Part shown: positions 7,028 to 20,024 of the stretch, piece after piece
Position numbering within the stretch: position 1 is the stretch's first letter
Layout: each line of letters begins with the position of its first letter
From: a virus
Lineage: Duplodnaviria > Caudoviricetes
DNA length: 64,000 nucleotides
Virus record (IMG/VR): IMGVR_UViG_3300032132_000748
Direction: 5' to 3' (one strand)
Position numbers and translations under genes: made by a program
The notes under the pieces: generated by a model
Seen by the model: the letters and a program-made list of their open reading frames with translations, nothing else
What the model was told of the DNA's origin: nothing
The model's database searches: none

Positions 7028-7678
7028 ATGACCATAACCTTACTACTCCTCTACAGCTTTCTTTGGTGGCAATTTCTAGTTATCACAACACTTAGCTCCG
7101 GGTATCATCGATATTTTTCTCACCAAAGTTTTGAGGCCCCTACTTGGTATGAATATTTGGTATTACTGCTGGGGCCACTAAGTGGCACAGGCCATGCTAT
7201 AGGGTGGGCCGGAGTGCATCGAATGCATCATGCCCACTCAGATACAGAACAAGATCCCCATAGCCCGATTTTCCAAAATTTTTGGAGAGTCCTAACTTCA
7301 ACGTTTACCGTAGATCATCTACCAAGCAAATACTTTAAAGACCTTTTTAAGAACAAAAGGGTTAAGTTTTTCTACAAATATCATATCCCTATTAGACTAA
7401 TAACCTTTGTGCTAGGTTTCCTACTGTTACCTCTATTTTGGTTTTTAGCACTAATTTGCCTACCCATGTTTTGGGGCCGTTTAAGCTTTGGAGTTGTTAA
7501 TACTATTGGTCACTGGTATGCTGAGCCCCGAGCTTCTTTGCTTGCTAATATTCTTTTAGGGGGTGAGGGAGATCATAAATATCATCATGAAAATCCAGGA
7601 AGCTTTAGAATCTCTAAATACTGGGACCCTGCTGGCTGGTTTATTAGTCTAATACGTTTAAAACCTCCCGTCATTTGA
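7028..7678 (+). CDS. Membrane fatty-acid desaturase (delta-9/OLE1-like)
   Basis: Three His boxes HRYFSH, HRMHH, HKYHH; DPHSP; WDPAGW; hydrophobic segments; GAGGTG Shine-Dalgarno site. Confidence 0.9.
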   Translation: MTITLLLLYSFLWWQFLVITTLSSGYHRYFSHQSFEAPTWYEYLVLLLGPLSGTGHAIGWAGVHRMHHAHSDTEQDPHSPIFQNFWRVLTSTFTVDHLPSKYFKDLFKNKRVKFFYKYHIPIRLITFVLGFLLLPLFWFLALICLPMFWGRLSFGVVNTIGHWYAEPRASLLANILLGGEGDHKYHHENPGSFRISKYWDPAGWFISLIRLKPPVI

Positions 7679-10136: not shown

Positions 10137-11726
10137 CTATCCAAGTACTGTTTTAGTGTGTTCTTTTCCATCGAAGGTCCATCGAACCGATGAGCGATTA
10201 TTGTTATCGTCATCCTCAAAGGTGTCAATGTGAACGGGTCGCCTCCAAATCTTGAAGAGATTTTCCAGCGTATCCTTACCCTTTGTCGGGTCAAGCTCTA
10301 TCTGCTGGTCTTCGAATACGTGACGCATACGAAGCTCTCCTCTATGGGCGTGGTCCGCATTCTCGACCTGAATAACAGGTTGACCTCCATTAACAAGTAA
10401 CCGCAAGAAGTGATCTTTTACGTCGGTGAAATCCCTGGTGACTTCATCGTAACCGAATCGGTTTGGCTTGTAAGAGAACAACCGCTGCTCACGGCAAAAC
10501 TCTTCAGTCAAATATGTTTCGATAAACGTAACGTCGTTATGGCTTTGCCTGACTTTGAAAAGTTCAGCCTTTCCAAGACCTAATTTACGATCCCAGTTGG
10601 ACTTCTCCTCCATCGAGGTGCAACGCTCATACTCAGGACCAAATTGTCCCTTGTTCCACCGCTCCTCAATATTACGGTATAAAGCAAGACCAAGTCGGTA
10701 AGGGTTGATCGATTGTCCTTGAGCAATAGCCCTTGATTGGCTATCGCAGTAGTCAACAATTTCTGCGTCTGTGGCGAGCCGAGCGTCTGCATCACGACCA
10801 GTCATGAATTTCTGGTGGATAAACGTGGCCCAGCCCTCGTTCATTATCTTTGTCATTCTCTGAGGAGCAAAGTAATAAGCTTCCTCGCGAACCATCGCCA
10901 GAATATCTCGTTTCCATTGTTCATCTGCATGGAATTTTGCATTATTGACCAAGAACCCGAGAATATCTCTATCTGGGTTTACTGGCAACTTCTTGCGCTT
11001 ACTCTTATCATCAGCACGTTTTCTACGCTGAACTTCAAGGAATTCAGGAGTGTTGATGTAGCGATCCATGTAGGAATTAGCTTTAAGGCGTGGTAGCGGT
11101 TTCGCTTCCTCTTCCTCAGTAACCGGATCATCTTGTCGCTTAATGAGCGACATATAGGGATCAATCAAGTTTTCAAGTGACAGACAAACGTCTAACCAGT
11201 TTTCAACCTCCGAAGCCCCATGACGGTTCATAAATCGCTGAACACGACTGGCATTGTTAGCCATTTGATCAAGCATGTAGCGATCTGTAGGCCCGAACCA
11301 AGCGTTATTTCTGAAGAAATCAGCGTGCCCACAAACGTGGATCATAACTAATTTCTGCTCAACAAGAGTGTTAGTGCTCAAAAGATAGGCAATAACAGGA
11401 TTGGTGTTAATAACTAGTTCGTAGATTTTAGCGGCACCGTAGACATATTTACGGTGGAGGCTCTCAAAATCCATTCCGTAGGTCCAGTGGGACATACGAC
11501 GAGGAAAGCCTGTGTAGGCAGCAATACCATTTAGTTCTTTTGGCGTGACCTGTAAGAACTTGATTGGATCGAAGGTAAGACCATAATCCTCTGCAATTCC
11601 AAAAATCTTTTTTGCATGTTTTCTGAGATCAGCAGGCAATTCCCTATTCGGGAAACCCCTAACTGAGTTTTGGTAAACTACGGGCTTTTCATCCGTAGGC
11701 TTTGCTTTTGCTTTATGACCTGCCAT
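10137..11726 (-). CDS. spoVR: SpoVR family protein
   Basis: GFPRRMSHWTYG, KIYELVINTNP, HVCGHADFFRNN, YFAPQRMTKIMNEGWATF, NPYRLG. Confidence 0.95.
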   Translation of the reverse strand: MAGHKAKAKPTDEKPVVYQNSVRGFPNRELPADLRKHAKKIFGIAEDYGLTFDPIKFLQVTPKELNGIAAYTGFPRRMSHWTYGMDFESLHRKYVYGAAKIYELVINTNPVIAYLLSTNTLVEQKLVMIHVCGHADFFRNNAWFGPTDRYMLDQMANNASRVQRFMNRHGASEVENWLDVCLSLENLIDPYMSLIKRQDDPVTEEEEAKPLPRLKANSYMDRYINTPEFLEVQRRKRADDKSKRKKLPVNPDRDILGFLVNNAKFHADEQWKRDILAMVREEAYYFAPQRMTKIMNEGWATFIHQKFMTGRDADARLATDAEIVDYCDSQSRAIAQGQSINPYRLGLALYRNIEERWNKGQFGPEYERCTSMEEKSNWDRKLGLGKAELFKVRQSHNDVTFIETYLTEEFCREQRLFSYKPNRFGYDEVTRDFTDVKDHFLRLLVNGGQPVIQVENADHAHRGELRMRHVFEDQQIELDPTKGKDTLENLFKIWRRPVHIDTFEDDDNNNRSSVRWTFDGKEHTKTVLG

Positions 11727-11766
11727 TGTAATCTCCTCTACGCCAAGTCTGCTAACTTAGGTTATT

Positions 11767-11797
11767 ACCTGTGACCGGGTAAATCCCGGCCACAGGT
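11767..11797. promoter_or_regulatory. Intergenic stem-loop between prkA and spoVR
   Basis: ACCTGTGACCGGG-TAAAT-CCCGGCCACAGGT inverted repeat; no U-tract. Confidence 0.5.
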
Positions 11798-11816
11798 CAG
11801 GGTGTAACGTTAGACG

Positions 11817-13886
11817 TTACTGGTTGGCGGGGTCGCCACGGACAAAGACACTCGCGACGTAGTTAAGCACGTCTCGTGATGACTCGTCGTTGTAGCCATA
11901 GGTATCTATGAGCCGCTGGCGAACAACCTCAATCTGCTTCTGAGTATCAGCGTCAACCACATCGGTCATCAACGTGTTAAGGTTGATCGTGTTTTTGCTG
12001 TCCTCGAAGAGTTTCAGTTCCAAAGCCTTCTGCAAACGCTCGTTGTTCCAGTATTCGAACTTCTTACCGTCAACAGCAAGAGCACCAATGTAGTTCATCA
12101 ACTCGCGGCGGAAATCATCCTTACGGGAGGCAGGAATATCGATTTTCTCTTCGATAGAGCGCATGAGCTGCTCATCCGGCTCTTCTTCCTGGCCCGTGTA
12201 TTTGTTGCGAATACGTTCACGCTGGCAGAACGCCTTAACGTTGTCAACGTAGTTAGCACAAAGTCGCGCAATTGCTTCTTCGTCCGCACAGATAGCACGC
12301 TGAACCTCGTTCTTAACGATATCAGTGTACTCTTCTTCCACATCAGCCAGGAGTGCTTCGTACTTCTGACGCTGATCCTTGTTAACAAGGGCGTGGTTCT
12401 TCAACCCGTCACGAATCTCATTCATAAGAATGAATGCGTTGACGTGACTGTATTTATCAGTCGAAAGCGCGGCTGAAAGCTTGTCCTGAATGAAGCGAGG
12501 GCTAATACCCTCCATACCTTCTCTCAGTTCCTTACCTTCATCTCGAAGCTCTTGAACGTTATCGATGGTGTAACCGGGGAGGGTTTTACCGTCGTAAAGC
12601 TTAAGCTTCTGCATCAACGTGATATTGCTGTCACGGGGATCTTTAAGACGAGTCAAGATTGCCCACATAGCTGCGATTGTTATCGTATGCGGCGCAATGT
12701 GCTTCGGAGGTGCCGAGAAATCTCGCTTGTAGATTCGCTCTTCCTCAGTAAGCTCCAAGTTGTAAGCGATATCAACCTTAATGGTTCTATCCTTGAAAGC
12801 TTCCATCAACTCGTCATTCTGGAGCTTCTTGTATTCCGGGTTGTTCGTGTGACCGAGGATGACTTCGTCAATATCGGTTTGTGCGAACTTACGCGGCTTG
12901 ATTTGCTTTTCCTGCGTAGCAGTGAGCAAGTCATACAAGAAAGCGGTTTCCAGCTTCAGCAACTCGATGAATTCGATCATGCCGCGATTAGCAACGTTGA
13001 ATTCTCCGTCGAAGTTGAATGCACGAGGATCACTGTCCGAACCGTAGATGGCAATCTTACGGTAATTGATATCACCTGTAAGTTCTGTCGCATCCTGGCT
13101 CTTTTCGTCCTTCGGCTGGTAAGTTCCGATACCCATACGGTCTTTTTCGGAGATAATCATCCGCTTAACGCGGAAGTATTTCTGAATGACCGCCTGCCAG
13201 TCGCCGTTTTCTCGCTCTAAGAAGATAGAGAAGTATTTACGACTAGCCGGATCAAGTGTTCCCTTGTGGGCAACAATCGGATAAGCGGTTTTCACTCCAG
13301 CAAAGAGTTCATCAACAAACGCTTGTCGAACCTCTGAGGGAATGAGTTTGAGAGGCTCTTCGTGCATCGGTGAATCGATCCACTCCTCTTCACCCGCAGC
13401 CGCGTCTGGATCCTTAATCTGGAAGGTGAAAAGACGACCAGCATCAGAACGTGAGTAACGCTCCAAGCCTCGCTTCAAAAGACGAGCGATTGTTGACTTT
13501 GCGGAGCCAACAGGTCCGTGCATAAGAAGAATACGGCGCTCAACACCATAACCCTCTGCACCCGCCTTGAGCAACTCAACCAGCTTATTAAGCTCTGAGT
13601 CAATACCGAATACGGCGTCCTTACCATTACCTTCTTCGTCGTCGAAGAATTTCCAGCGACGGAAAGTCTCTCGATGACGCTCGTAGTCCTCGTGCCCGTG
13701 AGACACGATCATATCGTAGAGCCGCTGATAAGCATTTCTTGCGATACCTGGATCACCGCGCAACATATCGAGATACTCGATAAAGGTGCAAACCTGATTC
13801 AGTTCTTTAAACTGCTCGGTCAGCGAAAATTTCTTCATCAAACCTGCGGCTGACCCTACAGATTTGGCTGCTTTCGCTTTAGCCAT
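11817..13886 (-). CDS. prkA: PrkA/YeaG family AAA+ serine protein kinase
   Basis: Walker A GPVGSAKST, DEKSQDATELTG, DPRAFNFDGEFNVANRG, IAPHT, EGMEGISPRFI; ATG 13886 follows AGAGGA. Confidence 0.95.
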   Translation of the reverse strand: MAKAKAAKSVGSAAGLMKKFSLTEQFKELNQVCTFIEYLDMLRGDPGIARNAYQRLYDMIVSHGHEDYERHRETFRRWKFFDDEEGNGKDAVFGIDSELNKLVELLKAGAEGYGVERRILLMHGPVGSAKSTIARLLKRGLERYSRSDAGRLFTFQIKDPDAAAGEEEWIDSPMHEEPLKLIPSEVRQAFVDELFAGVKTAYPIVAHKGTLDPASRKYFSIFLERENGDWQAVIQKYFRVKRMIISEKDRMGIGTYQPKDEKSQDATELTGDINYRKIAIYGSDSDPRAFNFDGEFNVANRGMIEFIELLKLETAFLYDLLTATQEKQIKPRKFAQTDIDEVILGHTNNPEYKKLQNDELMEAFKDRTIKVDIAYNLELTEEERIYKRDFSAPPKHIAPHTITIAAMWAILTRLKDPRDSNITLMQKLKLYDGKTLPGYTIDNVQELRDEGKELREGMEGISPRFIQDKLSAALSTDKYSHVNAFILMNEIRDGLKNHALVNKDQRQKYEALLADVEEEYTDIVKNEVQRAICADEEAIARLCANYVDNVKAFCQRERIRNKYTGQEEEPDEQLMRSIEEKIDIPASRKDDFRRELMNYIGALAVDGKKFEYWNNERLQKALELKLFEDSKNTINLNTLMTDVVDADTQKQIEVVRQRLIDTYGYNDESSRDVLNYVASVFVRGDPANQ

Positions 13887-13899
13887 GGATAGTCCTCTC

Positions 13900-16236
13900 T
13901 TATTCCTCTTCAGTTCTGATAAGGAAAACAACTGCTTCCTTAAGGGATTCTAACGTGTAGCCCAGCGCTAACATGTTATTAACTGTTTTCTCGACAGTTT
14001 TTGCATGATCTGCCGGGACCACCAGTTTCCAATCTTCAGTATCCCACTTGGGAATTGAATTTTGGATTTTTTTCAATTGATCTCGCTGTTCCGTATCACT
14101 GTTTCTGCGTAGCGCATCAAGTAGATCTGAGAATAGCGTTTTGTAGGGAGGAAGCTGGCCCTTACCCAATTTATCTGAGTGTTTAGTTGCCCAAGCACCA
14201 AGCTTGCTAAAGAGAGCTTTACGACGATCCTTGAATTCGGATTTGTCGATACCCATCTTCTCTTCAACAGAGCGCATCAGGAGTTCGTTCGGGGGCTCAT
14301 ACTTTCCAGTTTGAGAGTTTTTAATCTTCTCATTCTGGGTCCAGGCTTTAACGCTATCAATGTAGCGAATAAAGAGTTCCTCGTATTGATCTTCTGAGAT
14401 CAACCCTGCAGCACTTCTTAGGTCTTGACGAAGCATTCTACAGTAGAATTCCTTTACTTCACCTAGGATTTTATCGGGAGCCAAGAAGCCCTTTTCGTAT
14501 TTAGAACCCTCATCGTTACCTTCGTGCAACTTAGTGAATTCATAGATACTCTTGTTTTCAATCACACCTTCGATGGTTTGAAACAAGGCCATAGGCGAAA
14601 GGTAGCGACGACGACGGTTGGTGTTAATAACTATCGTTTCCACGTCTCGATAAGAAGCACCACTTCGACCCTCATAGGAGGCGTCATCTATGCCACCACC
14701 CTGAACTGGAATAATACGATCACGAGTGTTTGCATACTCATTAGCAATATGCTTAAGATCTCGTTCCAGAGCATTACGATTCTTTTGAGACCAGGTGGGC
14801 GGACCACAACCTGTATCGTAGAGGTATGCCTTCTCTGTTCCTGTCAACTTCGATCCCATAGAATCTTCTGAACGCCGCAGACGAGTTAATACTGTCCACA
14901 AAGCAAGTATGCTCTTTGTGTGAGGAGCAATATGCGTCTTCGAGAGAGCTTCTTCAAGAGGAGCAGCTTCGTCGATAGTAATCGCGTGCTCATCCAAAAT
15001 TAACCCACAAGTTTCCTTAACATTACTCCATTGAAGCAAGTAAGGGACTTTAACGTAGACAAACCGACCATTAAACGAAGGCCAATCCGGGTGACGCTTG
15101 AATTTACTCAAGGTCTTTTCATTGTCCGTCGCAAAGATTACGCAATCAAGTTGGGCTGTGAAACCTGGCAGGTTAATTGTGCCCCACTCAGCAGTGTTGA
15201 GGAGGTATTTGTTCTCATCAGGGTGACGTTTAAAGATTTCACCATACTCAACGATGCCTCGGTTGGAATCAACAAGGTCGCCGTAAGGCTGGTGCATTGA
15301 TGCCATAGCAAGAGCGCGAGGAATACGGTAACTCTTCTCTAGTGTTAACTCACGAGAATGGGCGTCACCATTTCGGCAAGGATCAATTGATATAAGACCT
15401 TTACGGAATAACTTAGAGAAGTAAAACCGCTCGATTTGGACGTGACGAATTACCTTAGTCCAATCACCACCATTAGAAACAAGAAGCTGGCGAAAGATTT
15501 CTTTACTCTTTTGGCTCAACTCAGCTTCGTAAAGCGGGTGTGGTTGGGGAACTTTCAAAGCCCGGAGAAGCTTGGCACGCTCAGGAATAGGAATAAGCAG
15601 TAGAGGATTATCTTTCATGCTTGAAGGCAGCTTGAAAGTAACGTCCTCGGGATCTGTATGAGCAAGGGTATCGCTGTTGTAATCCTCGTTCTTACCTTGT
15701 CCCTTTGCAAAACCTAAAGCTTTTTCTTTCTCACCTACGTCGGAGAAAAGCCAGTTGAACGTATAAACGGCACCTTGGGGAAGTTTTGAGTATTCCTCTA
15801 CTGCCAACATGATGGAAGCGTTTAGGGAAGTCTTAGCCGAACCATTAGGTCCGTGCAAAAGAATGATTTTGTTTACACGGTTCTTAGCGAAAGAAGAAAC
15901 GTAGTTGTAAATCTGGTTTTGAGCAAACTCTTGACCGAAAACAGGGAAGAAACGATCAAAGATAGACCATCTTCTTACCATCTCTCCGGTTATTGCTCTT
16001 ACTTCATAATGACCAAAGTGATCAAAAACGTCCTTAAGGTATTGTGCCGAGCTTCGGCAATACTTCTCTGGCTCAGCTTTAACTGAGGCAATAAATTCTT
16101 GAAACGATTTAATCGTTTGATTTGTTTCAAAGCGATTCTTAATCGCGACAGAAACATTCTCCAAAACCCAATCTTCGGGCTCCGTTTGGATTTCAAAATC
16201 GTCGGCTGCTGTTGGTTTTTGACGCCTTGCCATCAC
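13900..16236 (-). CDS. prkA: Second, divergent PrkA-family AAA+ protein
   Basis: Walker A GPNGSAKTS, GDLVDSNRGIVEY, VKVPYLL, HIAPHT, YEGRSGASYRD. Confidence 0.85.
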   Translation of the reverse strand: MMARRQKPTAADDFEIQTEPEDWVLENVSVAIKNRFETNQTIKSFQEFIASVKAEPEKYCRSSAQYLKDVFDHFGHYEVRAITGEMVRRWSIFDRFFPVFGQEFAQNQIYNYVSSFAKNRVNKIILLHGPNGSAKTSLNASIMLAVEEYSKLPQGAVYTFNWLFSDVGEKEKALGFAKGQGKNEDYNSDTLAHTDPEDVTFKLPSSMKDNPLLLIPIPERAKLLRALKVPQPHPLYEAELSQKSKEIFRQLLVSNGGDWTKVIRHVQIERFYFSKLFRKGLISIDPCRNGDAHSRELTLEKSYRIPRALAMASMHQPYGDLVDSNRGIVEYGEIFKRHPDENKYLLNTAEWGTINLPGFTAQLDCVIFATDNEKTLSKFKRHPDWPSFNGRFVYVKVPYLLQWSNVKETCGLILDEHAITIDEAAPLEEALSKTHIAPHTKSILALWTVLTRLRRSEDSMGSKLTGTEKAYLYDTGCGPPTWSQKNRNALERDLKHIANEYANTRDRIIPVQGGGIDDASYEGRSGASYRDVETIVINTNRRRRYLSPMALFQTIEGVIENKSIYEFTKLHEGNDEGSKYEKGFLAPDKILGEVKEFYCRMLRQDLRSAAGLISEDQYEELFIRYIDSVKAWTQNEKIKNSQTGKYEPPNELLMRSVEEKMGIDKSEFKDRRKALFSKLGAWATKHSDKLGKGQLPPYKTLFSDLLDALRRNSDTEQRDQLKKIQNSIPKWDTEDWKLVVPADHAKTVEKTVNNMLALGYTLESLKEAVVFLIRTEEE

Positions 16237-16388: not shown

Positions 16389-17258
16389 ATGGCTAATAGT
16401 GGCTTTAAGTGTATTTATTTGATTTGTGTTGATCATAACAACGACGTTAACCACGTTATAGGAAGAAATCCGTCTTTAAAGCGCGCGAGAACACTAGCTT
16501 CAAATGCCCGAACTAAATGGCCTGATAAAGATATCTACATTTCTGTAGAAAAGATACTAGAGAATCCGATGATATCGGAAAACGATTCACTTCCTGAACT
16601 ATCCCAACCATATCCTATGGAGGAGGAGGATACAACCTCCGATACAGAGGAGCTACGAAATCCTGAAGCTATTTGTATCTGCGGTAAATTATCGGGGGAA
16701 TGCGTTGGTTTGCTTGATTGTCGATGTAATGCCTTAGCAAAATGCAAGAATCTTGATTTTAATAGAGACAATCCTTTTGATACCAACCCTGGCTGGGGAT
16801 TAAGCAGCGAATTACCTAAAAATATGTACAGAACCTTAATTCGAGTCGAAGGTTTTAGGCGGGGGATCATAGATACAGTTATCCCTGGCTGGGATCCAGA
16901 GCAAACCGTTAGCATTAGCGCAAATGAATTACCATCAGAAGCTTTGGCTAAAATAAAAGAAGGATATAAGTATTTTTACGCTAAGGTAAACTTAGACGCA
17001 GAAAACGTTGATGATCTAGTAATAGAATTTCTTGAGATGGGACCAAAGCAAGCGCCCACAAATGAAGAAGTTTTTGGAGAAGAGTTTGCTCATTTAGACG
17101 ACGAAGACGAAGACATACCTTGGAGTGAGGAAGAAGCTGAAGCTTGGGAAGACGAAGATGATTCCGAGGAATATGAAGACGAAGATGACGATGACTTCGA
17201 TGAAGAAACAGAGAATTTCGTAGAATCAGATGAAGACGAATATGAAGATTCTGAGTAG
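16389..17258 (+). CDS. Hypothetical protein with Cys cluster and acidic C-terminal tail
   Basis: 289-aa ORF; CICGK...C...CRC; last ~60 aa mostly D/E. Confidence 0.7.
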   Translation: MANSGFKCIYLICVDHNNDVNHVIGRNPSLKRARTLASNARTKWPDKDIYISVEKILENPMISENDSLPELSQPYPMEEEDTTSDTEELRNPEAICICGKLSGECVGLLDCRCNALAKCKNLDFNRDNPFDTNPGWGLSSELPKNMYRTLIRVEGFRRGIIDTVIPGWDPEQTVSISANELPSEALAKIKEGYKYFYAKVNLDAENVDDLVIEFLEMGPKQAPTNEEVFGEEFAHLDDEDEDIPWSEEEAEAWEDEDDSEEYEDEDDDDFDEETENFVESDEDEYEDSE

Positions 17259-17260
17259 AT

Positions 17261-17302
17261 AAAAGAAAACCCCCGATCAAATCAATGATCGGAGGCTCTT
17301 TT
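17261..17302. terminator. Probable bidirectional terminator
   Basis: CCGATCA/TGATCGG stem flanked by A and T tracts between convergent genes. Confidence 0.55.
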
Positions 17303-17320
17303 AAAATCCTGACCTACTAC

Positions 17321-18997
17321 TTAAAGCAGCCCAGCGCTAAAATCGCGAACGATCTTAGGAGTGGCGGTATCGAAGCCAACAATATCTAGCATACCCGGAT
17401 CTTTTGGATCGGCAATGCTGAACTTGGTTGGAGTCATAGCAAGAACAACAAGTCTAGCTGGGATGCCAGTCTTATCACGATACCTTTGGAGAGCTTGAAC
17501 TGGGTGTCCAGTCTTCCCTGCGCTATTACCTCTACGGCCCCAATATCCTCCGCCAGGTTTTCCATCGTACCAGGTTTCGTTATCGGTTAGGACAACGAAA
17601 GTATCGATTTCAATACCCCTTTCTGCTGCATATACCATAGGCAACGCGCAGTTAGTAGCACCGAAAGGAATGCCAGACATCTTTTTGATAACAGCACCGA
17701 GACTATCCTTCTTGGACAAGCCAAGATCGACAAAGTCGTGACTGAAACCCATAGCAAGTGACTTACGCTCTGTACGATAAATCGTCATAGCCAAAGCCGC
17801 CGCACCAATCCGAGGAGTGATGCCGGTCATACCTGCTAATTCTGGACCACCCATTGAACCACTAACATCGACGCCCAAAAGGAATCGTTTGTTTGCTGGT
17901 TCAACATTTTCGAATGAAGCGTAGAACGCCTCATCCAAAGAATCCATAATATCTGGAATCACTTCCCAGGTCTTCTTACCCTTAACACCTCGGCCACGAC
18001 CGTAGGTATTGATTGCTACAAGAACATTCAATGGGTGGATACGAGCTTTCTTAAGTGCTTCACGATTAGTTAAGCGCTCTTGAACTAGTTGCAGGTTATC
18101 CCAACCACCTTTCTTTAGAACCCCGTTAGAAGACAAGCTACCGAGGTTTCTAATAAGAGCAGTCATACCCAAAGATGGAAGCATAGCTTCCCATACTTTT
18201 GGAGTACGCAGATTGGTTGGGATGCATTCCCAAGGAAGCTTAAATTCTTCGACTAAGCGAATTACTTCTGCTTCACTGCCTGCACGTTTTGCTCGCTCAA
18301 AGGCCCAGATTTTACGTAGACCTTCTACCTGAGGAACTGTTTCAGGAAGACCCCCTCCTTCGTTACCTTTGATAATCCATCGGTAAATAAGGCTCTTTTC
18401 CTCATCATTAGTTTTAATGTGAGAAAGACGGAAAATATCTCGGTGAGACCATCCATTACGCTGCTGATACTTAGTAACTTGGTGCGCAAGTTCCCTTGGG
18501 CTCTTATCATTGTACCAACGGTTGAAAGCTTTGCTCACAGCTTTGGACCAACCACGAAGGGCTCGAATGTTTGAAGCAAATGCGAATAGATGTGTACCTA
18601 TACGCGCAACTTTTGGCATCTCTTTGAATGCGTAAGACTTAGTCTCTGCATCGCCCATGCTTGCAGCTAAGGCAAGAACGAACAAAGCAGCATCATTCCT
18701 AGGAGCACGACCTCCCTGAGAAATTTTAACAACTTCGTTTACAACACGCTTACCGTCAGCTTTAATGCAAGCTAGAACGTTTGTAGCATTTTCTTTAGTC
18801 AGCTTTGCTTCACCTACATAGTAGGTTCCGCCTTCTGATCCGAGAATCAAGAAGCGATGTAGCTGTGACCATTTATCAACGACAAAAGAGAAACCTCCTG
18901 CGTTGTTCTTTTCCTGGTTTGTACCAAGAATCTTTTCGCTTTGTGGGGTTTTTTCTCCACGACGTGCGCGCGTCTTGATGTGATCTGTGTATTTCAT
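17321..18997 (-). CDS. rsr: Ro60/Rsr TROVE-domain RNA-binding protein
   Basis: NNAGGFSF, RFLILGSEGGTYY, KYQQRNGWSHRD, ALIRNLG, ARIHP, vWA MIDAS DVSGSM, TDNETW, LDIVGFD; ATG 18997 follows GGAGG. Confidence 0.96.
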   Translation of the reverse strand: MKYTDHIKTRARRGEKTPQSEKILGTNQEKNNAGGFSFVVDKWSQLHRFLILGSEGGTYYVGEAKLTKENATNVLACIKADGKRVVNEVVKISQGGRAPRNDAALFVLALAASMGDAETKSYAFKEMPKVARIGTHLFAFASNIRALRGWSKAVSKAFNRWYNDKSPRELAHQVTKYQQRNGWSHRDIFRLSHIKTNDEEKSLIYRWIIKGNEGGGLPETVPQVEGLRKIWAFERAKRAGSEAEVIRLVEEFKLPWECIPTNLRTPKVWEAMLPSLGMTALIRNLGSLSSNGVLKKGGWDNLQLVQERLTNREALKKARIHPLNVLVAINTYGRGRGVKGKKTWEVIPDIMDSLDEAFYASFENVEPANKRFLLGVDVSGSMGGPELAGMTGITPRIGAAALAMTIYRTERKSLAMGFSHDFVDLGLSKKDSLGAVIKKMSGIPFGATNCALPMVYAAERGIEIDTFVVLTDNETWYDGKPGGGYWGRRGNSAGKTGHPVQALQRYRDKTGIPARLVVLAMTPTKFSIADPKDPGMLDIVGFDTATPKIVRDFSAGLL

Positions 18998-19080
18998 GGT
19001 TAAACCTCCATTTAACTTGTATACAACCAAATACGGATGAGAGCCCTCTGGCTGTCAAAAGAAATAAGGTCTTGGGATCT

Positions 19081-19113
19081 CAGGACTTAGGCGGCCTGGC
19101 CTGCCATAAGCCT
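19081..19113 (-). promoter_or_regulatory. Ro60 5'-leader hairpin that duplicates the upstream ncRNA hairpin
   Basis: Minus strand AGGCTTATGGC-AGGCCAG-GCCGCCTAAGTCCTG directly after a TATAAT box. Confidence 0.55.
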
Positions 19114-19176
19114 AATTATAGGGCAAATATAATAAATTCAATGTTTCAGTAATTATTTGGTTATTGATCTGAGTAC

Positions 19177-19213
19177 AAAGAAATAGCCCGGAGCATTAAC
19201 TCCGGGCTATTTC
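19177..19213 (-). terminator. Intrinsic terminator ending the ncRNA
   Basis: Perfect 14-bp stem GAAATAGCCCGGAG/CTCCGGGCTATTTC followed by TTT on the minus strand. Confidence 0.8.
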
Positions 19214-19410
19214 CCAACTAGCGAACGGCCAATGATTTGGCTTTACAGGATATTTGTCAGGGATCGCTCCCCTTCAGTCCCAAGCATACCCCAGGCCACG
19301 AGCCGAGTCAAGGGAGCCGTCAGAATTTTGACAACTAGCCGAGCCAGCAGGACTTATGGCTTGGCCCGCCATAAGTCCCGCAAAACCGACAAATCAGAGG
19401 TTGTTTGCTA
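19214..19410 (-). ncRNA. Structured Ro60-associated ncRNA (candidate Y-like RNA)
   Basis: GC-rich intergenic segment with nested helices UAGCAAAC/GUUCGCUA and AUUUGUCGG/CUGACAAAU, a 14-bp hairpin GCGGGACUUAUGGC/GCCAUAAGUCCUGC, and GCUCCCUU/AAGGGGAGC; has its own terminator; lies next to rsr. Confidence 0.65.
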
Positions 19411-19484
19411 CACCTTATAGATGGGGCCTATTGAGAGGGAATATACAGAATTAATGCAGATGCTTTGGCTAATTTTCTGAAAAG

Positions 19485-20024
19485 ATGTTAAAATCAATAT
19501 TGGAGTTTTCTATGTACGTTGGCAACACTTTGGGTTCTTATGGCGGTTTATCAGATGCGTGGGGTTTTGGTGATACAAAACCCTCAATTGTTGATCCTAA
19601 GCAGTATATACCTCAAAAACATGACATTTTAAATGCTGATCAAGCATCTTTATATCTTAAGAGACCTGGCGATAGAAAGCCTCCTGCAACTAAAAATACT
19701 AAGGGAGGTGTCTATTGGACCAATACTGGTCCACAATTTTCGAATAAAAAAATAAAAATCGGCAAAAAAGCAGAGAAAGTTCCAGCACCTAAAATTAAAT
19801 TTAGACCTAACGTAGAGGTCGTCCGAGATTTACCAAAATTAGATCTCGCCCCTGTCCCCGGACAAACTCCCCCCAAAGAAGCTCCAAAAACAAAAGCCAA
19901 GGCGAAAGCTGCGGCAAAGACAAAACCCCTTGCGGGATTTGCAGATGCCAAGAAAGGCAGTATATTACCTCTCTTAATTCTAGGTTTGGTAATCATGGGA
20001 CTTGTAAGATACAATAAGTCCTAA
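19485..20024 (+). CDS. Lys/Pro-rich protein with C-terminal transmembrane helix
   Basis: Ends ILPLLILGLVIMGLVRYNKS. Confidence 0.65.
   Translation: MLKSILEFSMYVGNTLGSYGGLSDAWGFGDTKPSIVDPKQYIPQKHDILNADQASLYLKRPGDRKPPATKNTKGGVYWTNTGPQFSNKKIKIGKKAEKVPAPKIKFRPNVEVVRDLPKLDLAPVPGQTPPKEAPKTKAKAKAAAKTKPLAGFADAKKGSILPLLILGLVIMGLVRYNKS

What the first reader, a model, noticed from the sequence alone, without database searches (positions are those of the whole stretch)
19177..19410. Highly structured ~200-nt ncRNA upstream of phage Ro60, possibly a new Y-RNA class
Seen on the minus strand: the ends pair (UAGCAAAC/GUUCGCUA). A 9-bp helix AUUUGUCGG/CUGACAAAU encloses three arms: a 14-bp hairpin with loop GGGCCAA, UUGUCA/UGACGG, and GCUCCCUU/AAGGGGAGC. 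A GCCAA/UUGGC hairpin and a terminator follow. The GGGCCAA loop is complementary to UGGCCU in arm 3 and to UUGGCC near the 3' end, so a pseudoknot or switch is possible. Established: bacterial Y RNAs lie beside rsr and bind it through a GUC/GAC-containing helix. No YrlA-type T loop is visible, so this may be a different class.
Basis: partly seen in the sequence, partly recalled or inferred. Interest (0 to 1): 0.8.

Follow-up and report, generated by a model that had tools for sequence, protein, structure and literature searches.

The report
Orphan small RNA beside phage Ro60
A probable small non-coding RNA gene lies just upstream of a giant phage's Ro60 gene, but it lacks the signature of known Ro60 partner RNAs (Y RNAs), much of its proposed fold is no better than chance, and I found no relative, so its link to Ro60 is still an untested guess.

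Summary
The downstream gene (17321-18997, minus) is a canonical Ro60 with TROVE and vWA domains.

Only three elements exceed chance:
- the 14-bp hairpin (arm 1)
- a 16-17-bp terminator-like hairpin
- a 21-nt terminal inverted repeat

The remaining 115 nt fold no better than shuffles. The proposed Ro-binding helix, AUUUGUCGG/CUGACAAAU, has about 3% probability in the full-length ensemble. It competes with the terminal stem.

A model of the canonical Y-RNA handle, built here from 54 phage and bacterial examples, found 98 hits in 50 of 80 phage Ro60 loci. All lie on the Ro60 strand. It found nothing near this Ro60. Rfam, tRNA scans and a T-loop search were also negative.

I found no homologue of the RNA, so covariation could not be tested.

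Arm 1 is truly duplicated at the start of the rsr leader.

Best reading: an independently terminated minus-strand sRNA, possibly an accessory non-canonical Ro60 partner (about 35%).

The scan had noted this same stretch before, on an overlapping window of the same genome, but not on other DNA.

The parts
19177..19410 (-). The 3' end is well defined by the terminator. The 5' end is uncertain; candidates are about 19489, about 19408 and about 19276.
   Evidence: Sequence; fold z = -6.1; no promoter-like site is enriched over shuffles.
19390..19410 (-). 5' strand of the 21-nt terminal stem (pairs with 19219-19239).
   Evidence: Inverted repeat I1, 76% complementary. Ensemble p about 0.9. Duplex energy -14.4 kcal/mol on the minus strand (63 of 1000 shuffles as good) and -24.5 on the plus strand (0 of 2000).
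19219..19239 (-). 3' strand of the terminal stem. It overlaps the GCCAA-AUCA-UUGGC hairpin (19241-19228), which is an alternative pairing.
19347..19381 (-). Arm 1: 14-bp hairpin (13 Watson-Crick pairs and 1 G.U) with the 7-nt loop GGGCCAA. It is the only internal element clearly beyond chance.
   Evidence: Inverted repeat I4; p 0.66-0.99; removing it abolishes the excess stability.
19386..19394 (-).
   Evidence: It is the MFE in the isolated core. In the full-length RNA p is about 0.03, and the fold with this helix forced is 1.8 kcal/mol above the MFE. No match to handle model R2.
19252..19260 (-).
19315..19336 (-). Arm 2: hairpin AGUUGUCA-AAAUUC-UGACGGCU with two G.U pairs. It repeats the UUGUC/GAC motif of the 9-bp helix.
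   Evidence: p 0.57-0.97. It lies in the inner 115 nt, which fold no better than shuffles.
19266..19317 (-). Arm 3 (GCUCCCUU/AAGGGGAGC around 36 nt). It competes with a GNRA hairpin, GGGGA-GCGA-UCCCU, at 19272-19259.
   Evidence: p about 0.17; alternative folds lie within 2-3 kcal/mol.
19178..19215 (-). Terminator-like hairpin: 16-17-bp stem, 6-nt loop, GC-rich core, U-rich 3' side (AUUUCUUUGU).
   Evidence: p about 1.0. The plus-strand tail is U-poor. The design matches the terminator after rsr at 17299-17266. The simple scan did not flag it, because its U-tract is partly paired.
19081..19110 (-). Degenerate copy of arm 1 at the predicted 5' end of the rsr mRNA. 25 of 28 positions are identical, there is a 2-nt indel, and the stem is imperfect.
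   Evidence: Repeat D2; pattern match; local alignment score 34 against 15.6 +/- 2.3 for shuffles, 0 of 500 as good.
19115..19120 (-). Perfect TATAAT, the likely -10 box of the rsr promoter, 5-8 nt upstream of the leader hairpin.
17321..18997 (-). rsr: Ro60 orthologue of 558 aa (TROVE and Ro60-type vWA domains), with RBS GGAGG, followed by a terminator at 17299-17266.
   Evidence: Pfam PF05731 at 1e-37 and PF25045 at 9.6e-56; PHROG 850; 6680 homologues; terminator.
19232..19420 (+). 62-aa ORF that overlaps the RNA on the opposite strand. It is most likely not a gene.
   Evidence: No Pfam hit; no homologue, and not even a called gene; exhaustive HMMER gave only a repetitive false hit.

Best explanation
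The region is an independently transcribed small RNA gene on the minus strand. It is about 100-310 nt long depending on the unknown start. It ends at a strong intrinsic terminator (19215-19177), 60 nt before the rsr promoter.

Its solid features are three: a terminal stem formed by its two ends, one long hairpin (arm 1) with a GGCC-containing loop, and the terminator.

I think it most likely works as an accessory, non-canonical Ro60-associated RNA. Ro60 would hold it by a stem, either the terminal stem or the alternative bulge-less GUCGG/CUGAC helix. It would be functionally coupled to rsr through the arm 1 hairpin, a copy of which opens the rsr mRNA. That shared hairpin could be a common binding or processing site and would allow feedback on Ro60 synthesis.

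Shown: the sequence elements, the terminator design, the absence of coding signal, the hairpin duplication, and the adjacency to a canonical Ro60.

Inferred: the strand, the existence of the transcript, any contact with Ro60, and any regulatory coupling.
For: - A terminator-type hairpin with a U-rich tail only on the minus strand sits in a divergent intergenic region. No minus-strand ORF lies upstream of it.
- rsr itself ends in a hairpin of the same design.
- There is no coding signal.
- The position and strand match those of Ro60 partner RNAs. All 98 handle hits in 50 of 80 phage Ro60 loci lie on the Ro60 strand, mostly within 1 kb upstream. Chen et al. 2014 (PMC4201824) report the same for more than 250 species.
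- The two ends pair into a long imperfect stem, as in Y RNAs.
- Arm 1 is significantly duplicated at the start of the rsr leader.
- There is precedent for non-canonical RNAs encoded upstream of rsr that bind it weakly: D. radiodurans RNAs a, b and d (PMC4201824).
Against: - The canonical handle is absent. Model R2 gives at best 5.8 bits (E = 1.5) near Ro60. A regex scan and Rfam were also negative.
- The GUCGG/CUGAC helix pairs the C that is bulged in every canonical site, and it is a 3% conformer.
- Outside arm 1 and the terminator the fold is at chance level.
- The terminal stem is much better on the plus strand.
- No homologue was found in 160 Ro60 loci, phage genomes, plasmids or IMG/VR.
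- Complete huge phages keep canonical Y RNAs about 125 kb from Ro60. Earlier unchecked notes place YrlA-type RNAs 155 and 221 kb away in this genome, so adjacency is weak evidence here.
- Promoter-like sites are not enriched over shuffles.
Confidence: 0.35

Rival explanations
1. It is an unrelated phage sRNA. It is a real minus-strand small RNA, but its neighbourhood with rsr is incidental. It would act on other targets, for example by base pairing or by binding another protein through the arm 1 hairpin. Ro60 would use canonical Y RNAs encoded elsewhere in the genome.
For: - The same transcript evidence as above applies.
- The canonical handle is absent.
- Canonical Y RNAs lie more than 100 kb from Ro60 in two complete huge phages. 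Per earlier unchecked notes, the same holds in this genome.
Against: - The arm 1 copy at the first bases of the rsr mRNA links the two units.
- The position and strand are exactly those of Ro60 partner RNAs.
Confidence: 0.27
2. Only the 3' third is the RNA. A transcript of about 100 nt would start near 19276 from TTGACT-N17-TATGCT (19311-19283). It would hold a GNRA hairpin (19272-19259), a single-stranded stretch, the GCCAA/UUGGC hairpin and the terminator. Arm 1 and arm 2 would lie upstream as promoter-region or relic sequence.
For: - This is the best sigma70-like match on the minus strand inside the region, 9 of 12 with a 17-nt spacer.
- The layout is typical of an sRNA.
- The inner structure of the long form is not beyond chance.
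Against: - Matches of 9 of 12 occur 1.7 times per kb per strand in the window and are not enriched over shuffles.
- It leaves the significant arm 1 hairpin and the terminal inverted repeat unexplained.
Confidence: 0.12
3. The functional strand is plus. The terminal stem and arm 1 would belong to a plus-strand RNA, for example a long structured leader running into ORF 19512-20024 and the sigma-factor gene, or a divergent sRNA.
For: - The terminal stem has 19 of 21 pairs and -24.5 kcal/mol on the plus strand (0 of 2000 shuffles as good). On the minus strand it has 16 of 21 pairs and -14.4 kcal/mol.
- The plus-strand body without arm 1 has z = -2.9, against -0.3 for the minus strand.
- The plus-strand 5' arm carries a CGAA.
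- A perfect TATAAT lies on the plus strand near 19128-19133.
Against: - There is no terminator after 19410 on the plus strand, and the big hairpin's plus-strand tail is U-poor.
- ORF 19512-20024 has its own extended -10 promoter at 19465-19494 and an RBS.
- Arm 1 and arm 2 lose pairs on the plus strand.
- Handle model R2 finds nothing on this strand either.
Confidence: 0.1
4. There is no dedicated RNA function. The region would be an insulating terminator plus decayed leftovers, for example of a former Y-RNA array or a small inverted-repeat element, and the other helices would be chance pairings in G+U-rich sequence.
For: - The inner 115 nt fold like shuffles.
- The arm 1 copy in the leader has uncompensated changes.
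- The element is bounded by imperfect 21-nt inverted repeats that end in TA.
- No homologue was found.
Against: - A perfect 14-bp hairpin and a 16-17-bp terminator with intact stems argue for maintenance.
- There is no second copy of the inverted repeat or of the element in the 64-kb window.
- A terminator needs a transcript to terminate.
Confidence: 0.16

Closest known systems
YrlA / YrlB (Salmonella, Mycobacterium and mycobacteriophage Y RNAs; Chen et al. 2014, PMC4201824)
   Same: It is encoded just upstream of Ro60/rsr on the same strand. The 5' and 3' ends can form a long imperfect stem. Several such RNAs often precede rsr, and here there is one RNA plus a hairpin copy in the leader.
   Different: It has no GNCGAAN0-1G motif, only GUCGGU. 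It has no bulged C, no T arm, D arm or acceptor-like stem, and no match to the handle model R2 or to Rfam families. At about 230 nt it is longer than most of these RNAs.
Minimal phage and bacterial Y RNAs (stem-bulge type, 55-75 nt), as aligned here in A3; nematode sbRNAs (Rfam RF01656) are the nearest curated family
   Same: Both have a helix containing GUC/GAC next to a G.U pair. They share the genomic position.
   Different: The canonical consensus is GGGYC-GRAG ... GGUUAYC ... CUUGRCCC, a two-helix coaxial stem. The window RNA has a multi-branch interior, lacks GGUUAYC, and pairs the C that is normally bulged.
D. radiodurans RNAs a, b and d (and Yrn2), encoded upstream of rsr
   Same: They are non-canonical RNAs encoded upstream of rsr alongside canonical Y RNAs, and some bind Rsr only weakly. 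That is the role proposed here.
   Different: RNAs a and b still carry T-arm-like hairpins. Their binding to Rsr was shown experimentally, whereas nothing has been shown here.
Thermus phage phiLo Yrl1 / Yrl2 (PMC12135203)
   Same: They are phage-encoded RNAs upstream of a phage Ro60. They were predicted from position and fold, then shown to bind.
   Different: They were picked by their CGAA motif in a stem-bulge-stem. The window RNA has no CGAA on the Ro60 strand.

Membership tests
Y RNA (Ro60 partner RNA: YrlA/YrlB/Yrn/Yrl, sbRNA) | Encoded within a few kb of Ro60 on the same strand | tested here: met
   The RNA's terminator ends 180 nt upstream of the rsr start codon. The strand is inferred from the terminator tail, not proven.
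Y RNA (Ro60 partner RNA: YrlA/YrlB/Yrn/Yrl, sbRNA) | Conserved Ro60-binding handle: helix, bulged C, G.U and A-U pairs (GNCGAA / CGRAG on the 5' strand, CUUG on the 3' strand) | tested here: not met
   Model R2, built from 54 handles, gave 98 hits in 50 of 80 phage Ro60 loci. Within 16900-19600 its best score was 5.8 bits, E = 1.5, with filters off. The regex scan was negative. Rfam gave only chance-level hits to unrelated families at E <= 10.
Y RNA (Ro60 partner RNA: YrlA/YrlB/Yrn/Yrl, sbRNA) | GGUUAYC motif at the top of the second helix | tested here: not met
   None in 18998-19484 on either strand.
Y RNA (Ro60 partner RNA: YrlA/YrlB/Yrn/Yrl, sbRNA) | Long stem formed by pairing of the 5' and 3' termini | tested here: met
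   A 21-nt imperfect stem with ensemble p about 0.9. On the minus strand it is only marginally better than shuffles, 63 of 1000.
YrlA subfamily | tRNA-like module (T arm, D arm, acceptor-like stem) | tested here: not met
   No tRNA or tRNA-like match at E <= 10. ARAGORN finds nothing there. No T-loop sequence is visible on inspection.
Y RNA (Ro60 partner RNA: YrlA/YrlB/Yrn/Yrl, sbRNA) | Physical binding to Ro60, or Ro60-dependent accumulation | not testable with these tools
   This needs EMSA, RIP or a Northern blot.
Any conserved structured RNA family | Homologues with covarying base pairs | tested here: inconclusive
   No homologue was found in 160 Ro60 loci, INPHARED phages, PLSDB plasmids or IMG/VR. 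The contigs of the close Ro60 relatives could not be fetched.
Intrinsically terminated small RNA gene | GC-rich hairpin with a U-rich tail, no ORF, and its own promoter | tested here: inconclusive
   The hairpin, the tail and the absence of an ORF are met. No promoter can be told from background.
MITE-like inverted-repeat element | Terminal inverted repeats plus several copies in the genome | tested here: inconclusive
   Inverted repeats are present. No second copy lies in the 64-kb window. The rest of the 859-kb contig is not available.

The most novel reading that the evidence does not exclude
The RNA is the founding member of a new class of Ro60 partner RNA. It would be recognised without the canonical bulged-C handle, through the bulge-less GUCGG/CUGAC helix or the terminal stem. 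Its arm 1 hairpin, repeated at the 5' end of the rsr mRNA, would let Ro60 or the RNA control Ro60 synthesis. That would be a Y-RNA-based autoregulatory loop in a giant phage.
Probability: 0.12. Interest if true: 0.7.

Novelty: new variant of a known kind. Interest (0 to 1): 0.35.

Why it matters
If this RNA binds Ro60, then Ro60 can recruit RNAs without the handle that defines every known Y RNA from bacteria to humans. The duplicated hairpin would then be a first hint of how Ro60 synthesis is coupled to its RNA partners in a virus.

If it does not bind, it is one more orphan phage sRNA.

The practical lesson holds either way. In giant phages, adjacency to Ro60 is weak evidence, because canonical Y RNAs can lie more than 100 kb from the gene. 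Long perfect hairpins can also make an otherwise chance-level fold look highly structured.

Tried and rejected
1. Rfam, at gathering threshold and at E <= 10. Only chance-level hits to MicC, STnc260 and similar families, on the terminator hairpin.
2. blastn and nhmmer of the region against 160 Ro60 loci. Nothing.
3. Single-sequence covariance model R1 against the window and 161 loci. It found only itself and its palindromic arm 1.
4. blastn against INPHARED phages and PLSDB plasmids. Nothing.
5. IMG/VR scan for the arm 1 hairpin pattern. Nine hits, all unrelated, with eight in one recurring sequence and none forming the hairpin.
6. Relatives of the phage through Ro60, the sigma factor and ORF179. 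No Ro60 relative was closer than 50% identity, no full-length sigma-factor relative closer than 43%, and ORF179 had none. Nothing in the GTDB genomes.
The DNA next to the close Ro60 relatives P0002-P0016 was therefore never seen.
8. The coding explanation for the 62-aa ORF is rejected.
9. Antisense pairing between arm 2 and the rsr leader (12 of 13 pairs). My estimate of about 1.3 such matches expected by chance puts it at chance level. The whole-length duplex energies were uninformative.
10. Pseudoknot or switch through the GGGCCAA loop. The matches are 5-6 nt and built on the palindrome GGCC, so they are not beyond chance.
11. The MITE idea. No second copy in the window.
12. Retron msr/msd, omega RNA and riboswitch-leader readings. 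There is no RT, IscB or TnpB neighbour, and a promoter separates the terminator from rsr.

Full report
**What is there**

The next gene downstream is a canonical Ro60 at 18997-17321. It has 558 aa, an RBS GGAGG, and Pfam TROVE (1e-37) plus the Ro60-type vWA domain (9.6e-56). It also matches PHROG 850.

The region lies between two divergent genes. On the plus strand the neighbour listed as 19485-20024 more probably starts at 19512. That start has an RBS GGAG, and an extended -10 promoter-like site lies at 19465-19494.

The window looks like part of a huge phage. It carries PolA, a sliding clamp, dUTPase, MazG, ThyA, a dNMP kinase, EF-Tu, a sigma70-type factor and many ORFans. Its own contig is 859 kb. 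No whole genome is held for it.

**How much of the structure is real**

The 234 nt fold to -103.8 kcal/mol, z = -6.1. The excess stability, however, comes from two long perfect hairpins.
- Arm 1 (19381-19347, 14 bp) and the terminator-like hairpin (19215-19178) account for nearly all of it.
- Without the terminator, the body has z = -2.8.
- Without arm 1 as well, z = -0.3.
- The inner 115 nt have z = +0.7 on the minus strand and +0.4 on the plus strand.

In the full-length ensemble the 9-bp helix AUUUGUCGG/CUGACAAAU has a probability of about 0.03, and arm 3 about 0.17. The 5' GAUUUG instead pairs with CAAAUC further 3' and extends a 21-nt terminal stem (19410-19390 with 19239-19219), with p about 0.9. 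It remains a possible conformer but is not the favoured one. The loop complementarities (GGGCCAA with UGGCCU and UUGGCC) are short and built on the palindrome GGCC. I rate them as chance.

**Strand**

The pairings do not decide the strand.
- Arm 1, arm 2 and the 9-bp helix hold four G.U pairs on the minus strand.
- The three A.C mismatches of the terminal stem are G.U on the plus strand. There the stem reaches -24.5 kcal/mol (0 of 2000 shuffles as good), against -14.4 (63 of 1000) on the minus strand.

What favours the minus strand is the terminator.
- Its GC-rich core is followed by AUUUCUUUGU on the minus strand but by AUUUCCCAAC on the plus strand.
- No minus-strand ORF lies upstream of it.
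- rsr itself ends in a hairpin of the same design at 17299-17266.
- The plus-strand neighbour has its own promoter-like site and RBS downstream of the structure.

I put the minus strand at about two in three.

The 5' end is open. Candidate starts lie near 19489, 19408 (a poor TATAAG -10) and 19276 (TTGACT-N17-TATGCT). Sites of that quality occur 1.7 times per kb per strand and are not enriched over shuffles.

**Coding**

The 62-aa plus-strand ORF has no Pfam match. It has no homologue among 5.8 billion clustered proteins, and the window's own copy is not even recorded there as a called gene. An exhaustive HMMER search gave only a repetitive 527-aa false hit. Translation does not explain the region.

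**Is it a Y RNA?**

Upstream of Ro60 in other loci I found one strong recurring element: GGGYC-GRAG, a second helix ending in GGUUAYC, and CUUGRCCC on the way back. This is the GNCGAA/CGAA handle of Chen et al. 2014 and of the phiLo study. From 54 minimal examples I built alignment A3 and model R2.

R2 gave these results:
- 98 hits at E <= 0.01 in 50 of 80 IMG/VR Ro60 loci, every one on the Ro60 strand.
- In the window, only a weak 38-nt hit at 7202-7239 on the opposite strand (E = 0.06).
- With filters off, nothing above 5.8 bits between 16900 and 19600.

Rfam has no match at E <= 10 beyond chance-level hits. In the positive-control loci, Rfam's curated families caught few handles, which is why I built R2. 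ARAGORN and the tRNA model see no tRNA-like module.

But it pairs the C that is bulged in all canonical sites, it has GU where CGAA has AA, and it lacks GGUUAYC. The plus strand offers an equally approximate look-alike, UAGCGAAC/GUUUGCUA. This shows how cheap such resemblances are. Membership in the known Y-RNA families is therefore tested and not met. Only location, strand and the end-to-end stem fit.

**Relatives**

I found no homologue of the RNA.
- blastn and nhmmer against 160 Ro60 loci gave nothing.
- Single-sequence model R1 against those loci gave nothing.
- INPHARED, PLSDB and IMG/VR gave nothing related.

IMG/VR and the GTDB genomes hold no close relative. Covariation, the decisive test, could therefore not be run.

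**Context that lowers the prior**

Two complete huge phages whose Ro60 has no adjacent handle carry three canonical handles each, about 125 kb from the gene. Two other complete huge phages have none detectable. Earlier notes of this scan say that this same genome holds YrlA-type Y RNAs 155 and 221 kb before the window, inside tRNA arrays. Those notes come from AI follow-ups and I could not check them, because the rest of the contig is not held. If they are right, Ro60 already has canonical partners.

**Context that raises it**

Arm 1 is duplicated. A 30-nt copy lies at 19110-19081, 5-8 nt after a perfect TATAAT, so at the first bases of the rsr mRNA. It matches 25 of 28 positions with a 2-nt indel (score 34 against 15.6 +/- 2.3 for shuffles, 0 of 500 as good). 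The copy folds imperfectly and its changes are not compensated. It may be a functional variant or it may be decaying.

Tandem RNA units in front of rsr are the norm at Ro60 loci. In D. radiodurans, non-canonical RNAs a, b and d encoded upstream of rsr bind it weakly.

**Verdict**

The region most likely encodes a discrete, intrinsically terminated minus-strand small RNA. Its function is unknown. My best guess, at about 35%, is an accessory non-canonical Ro60-associated RNA coupled to rsr through the shared hairpin.

The rivals are an unrelated sRNA (27%), non-functional remnants (16%), a shorter 3' sRNA (12%) and a plus-strand RNA (10%).

The finding is a reasonable lead, not a demonstrated new Y-RNA class. 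The structural claim is weaker than it looked. The same stretch was noted before by readers of this window or of an overlapping window of the same genome, but not on other DNA.

Noticed in passing
window 7202-7239 (+): A 38-nt hairpin with a near-canonical Y-RNA handle: GGGUGGGC-CGGAG, a 5-bp hairpin, then CAU-GCCCACUC. Model R2 gives it 17.5 bits, E = 0.06. It lies inside an ORFan (7028-7678, no Pfam hit) on the strand opposite Ro60. It may be chance or a mini handle.
   Followed up: partly
window 17266-17299 (-): A strong intrinsic terminator (14-bp stem, U-rich tail) directly after the rsr stop codon. rsr is therefore a monocistronic unit bracketed by two terminators. The terminator overlaps the listed 99-aa ORF 16981-17280, which may not be real or may start later.
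   Followed up: partly
window 19485-20024 (+): This ORFan more probably starts at the in-frame ATG at 19512. That start has an RBS GGAG 8 nt upstream, and an extended -10 promoter-like site lies at 19465-19494. It has no Pfam or PHROG match and no relative in IMG/VR.
   Followed up: partly
window 37348-37735 (+): Five tandem tRNA-model hits. ARAGORN reads four of them with 8-nt or 6-nt anticodon loops (taag / aa). Earlier notes of the scan already treat them as four-base-codon tRNAs.
   Followed up: no
L092 2767-2886; L097 2862-2983; L102 2379-2509 and 2833-2960: Directly upstream of other phage Ro60 genes lie full tRNA-model matches that carry insertions of about 60 nt in the anticodon arm. 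They appear to be Y RNAs whose ends sit at the acceptor stem, the reverse wiring of YrlA.
   Followed up: partly
G003 (contig of L106) 177-184 kb; G004 (contig of L107) 4.7-7.6 kb and 465 kb: In two complete huge phages of about 460 kb, the canonical Y-RNA handles lie about 125 kb from the Ro60 gene. Two other complete huge phages with Ro60 (the contigs of L086 and L119) show no canonical handle at all.
   Followed up: partly
window 10137-16236 (-): Two tandem PrkA-type kinase genes (one divergent) and spoVR, with no yeaH/DUF444 gene detected in this stretch, in a phage-like context just downstream of the Ro60 unit.
   Followed up: no
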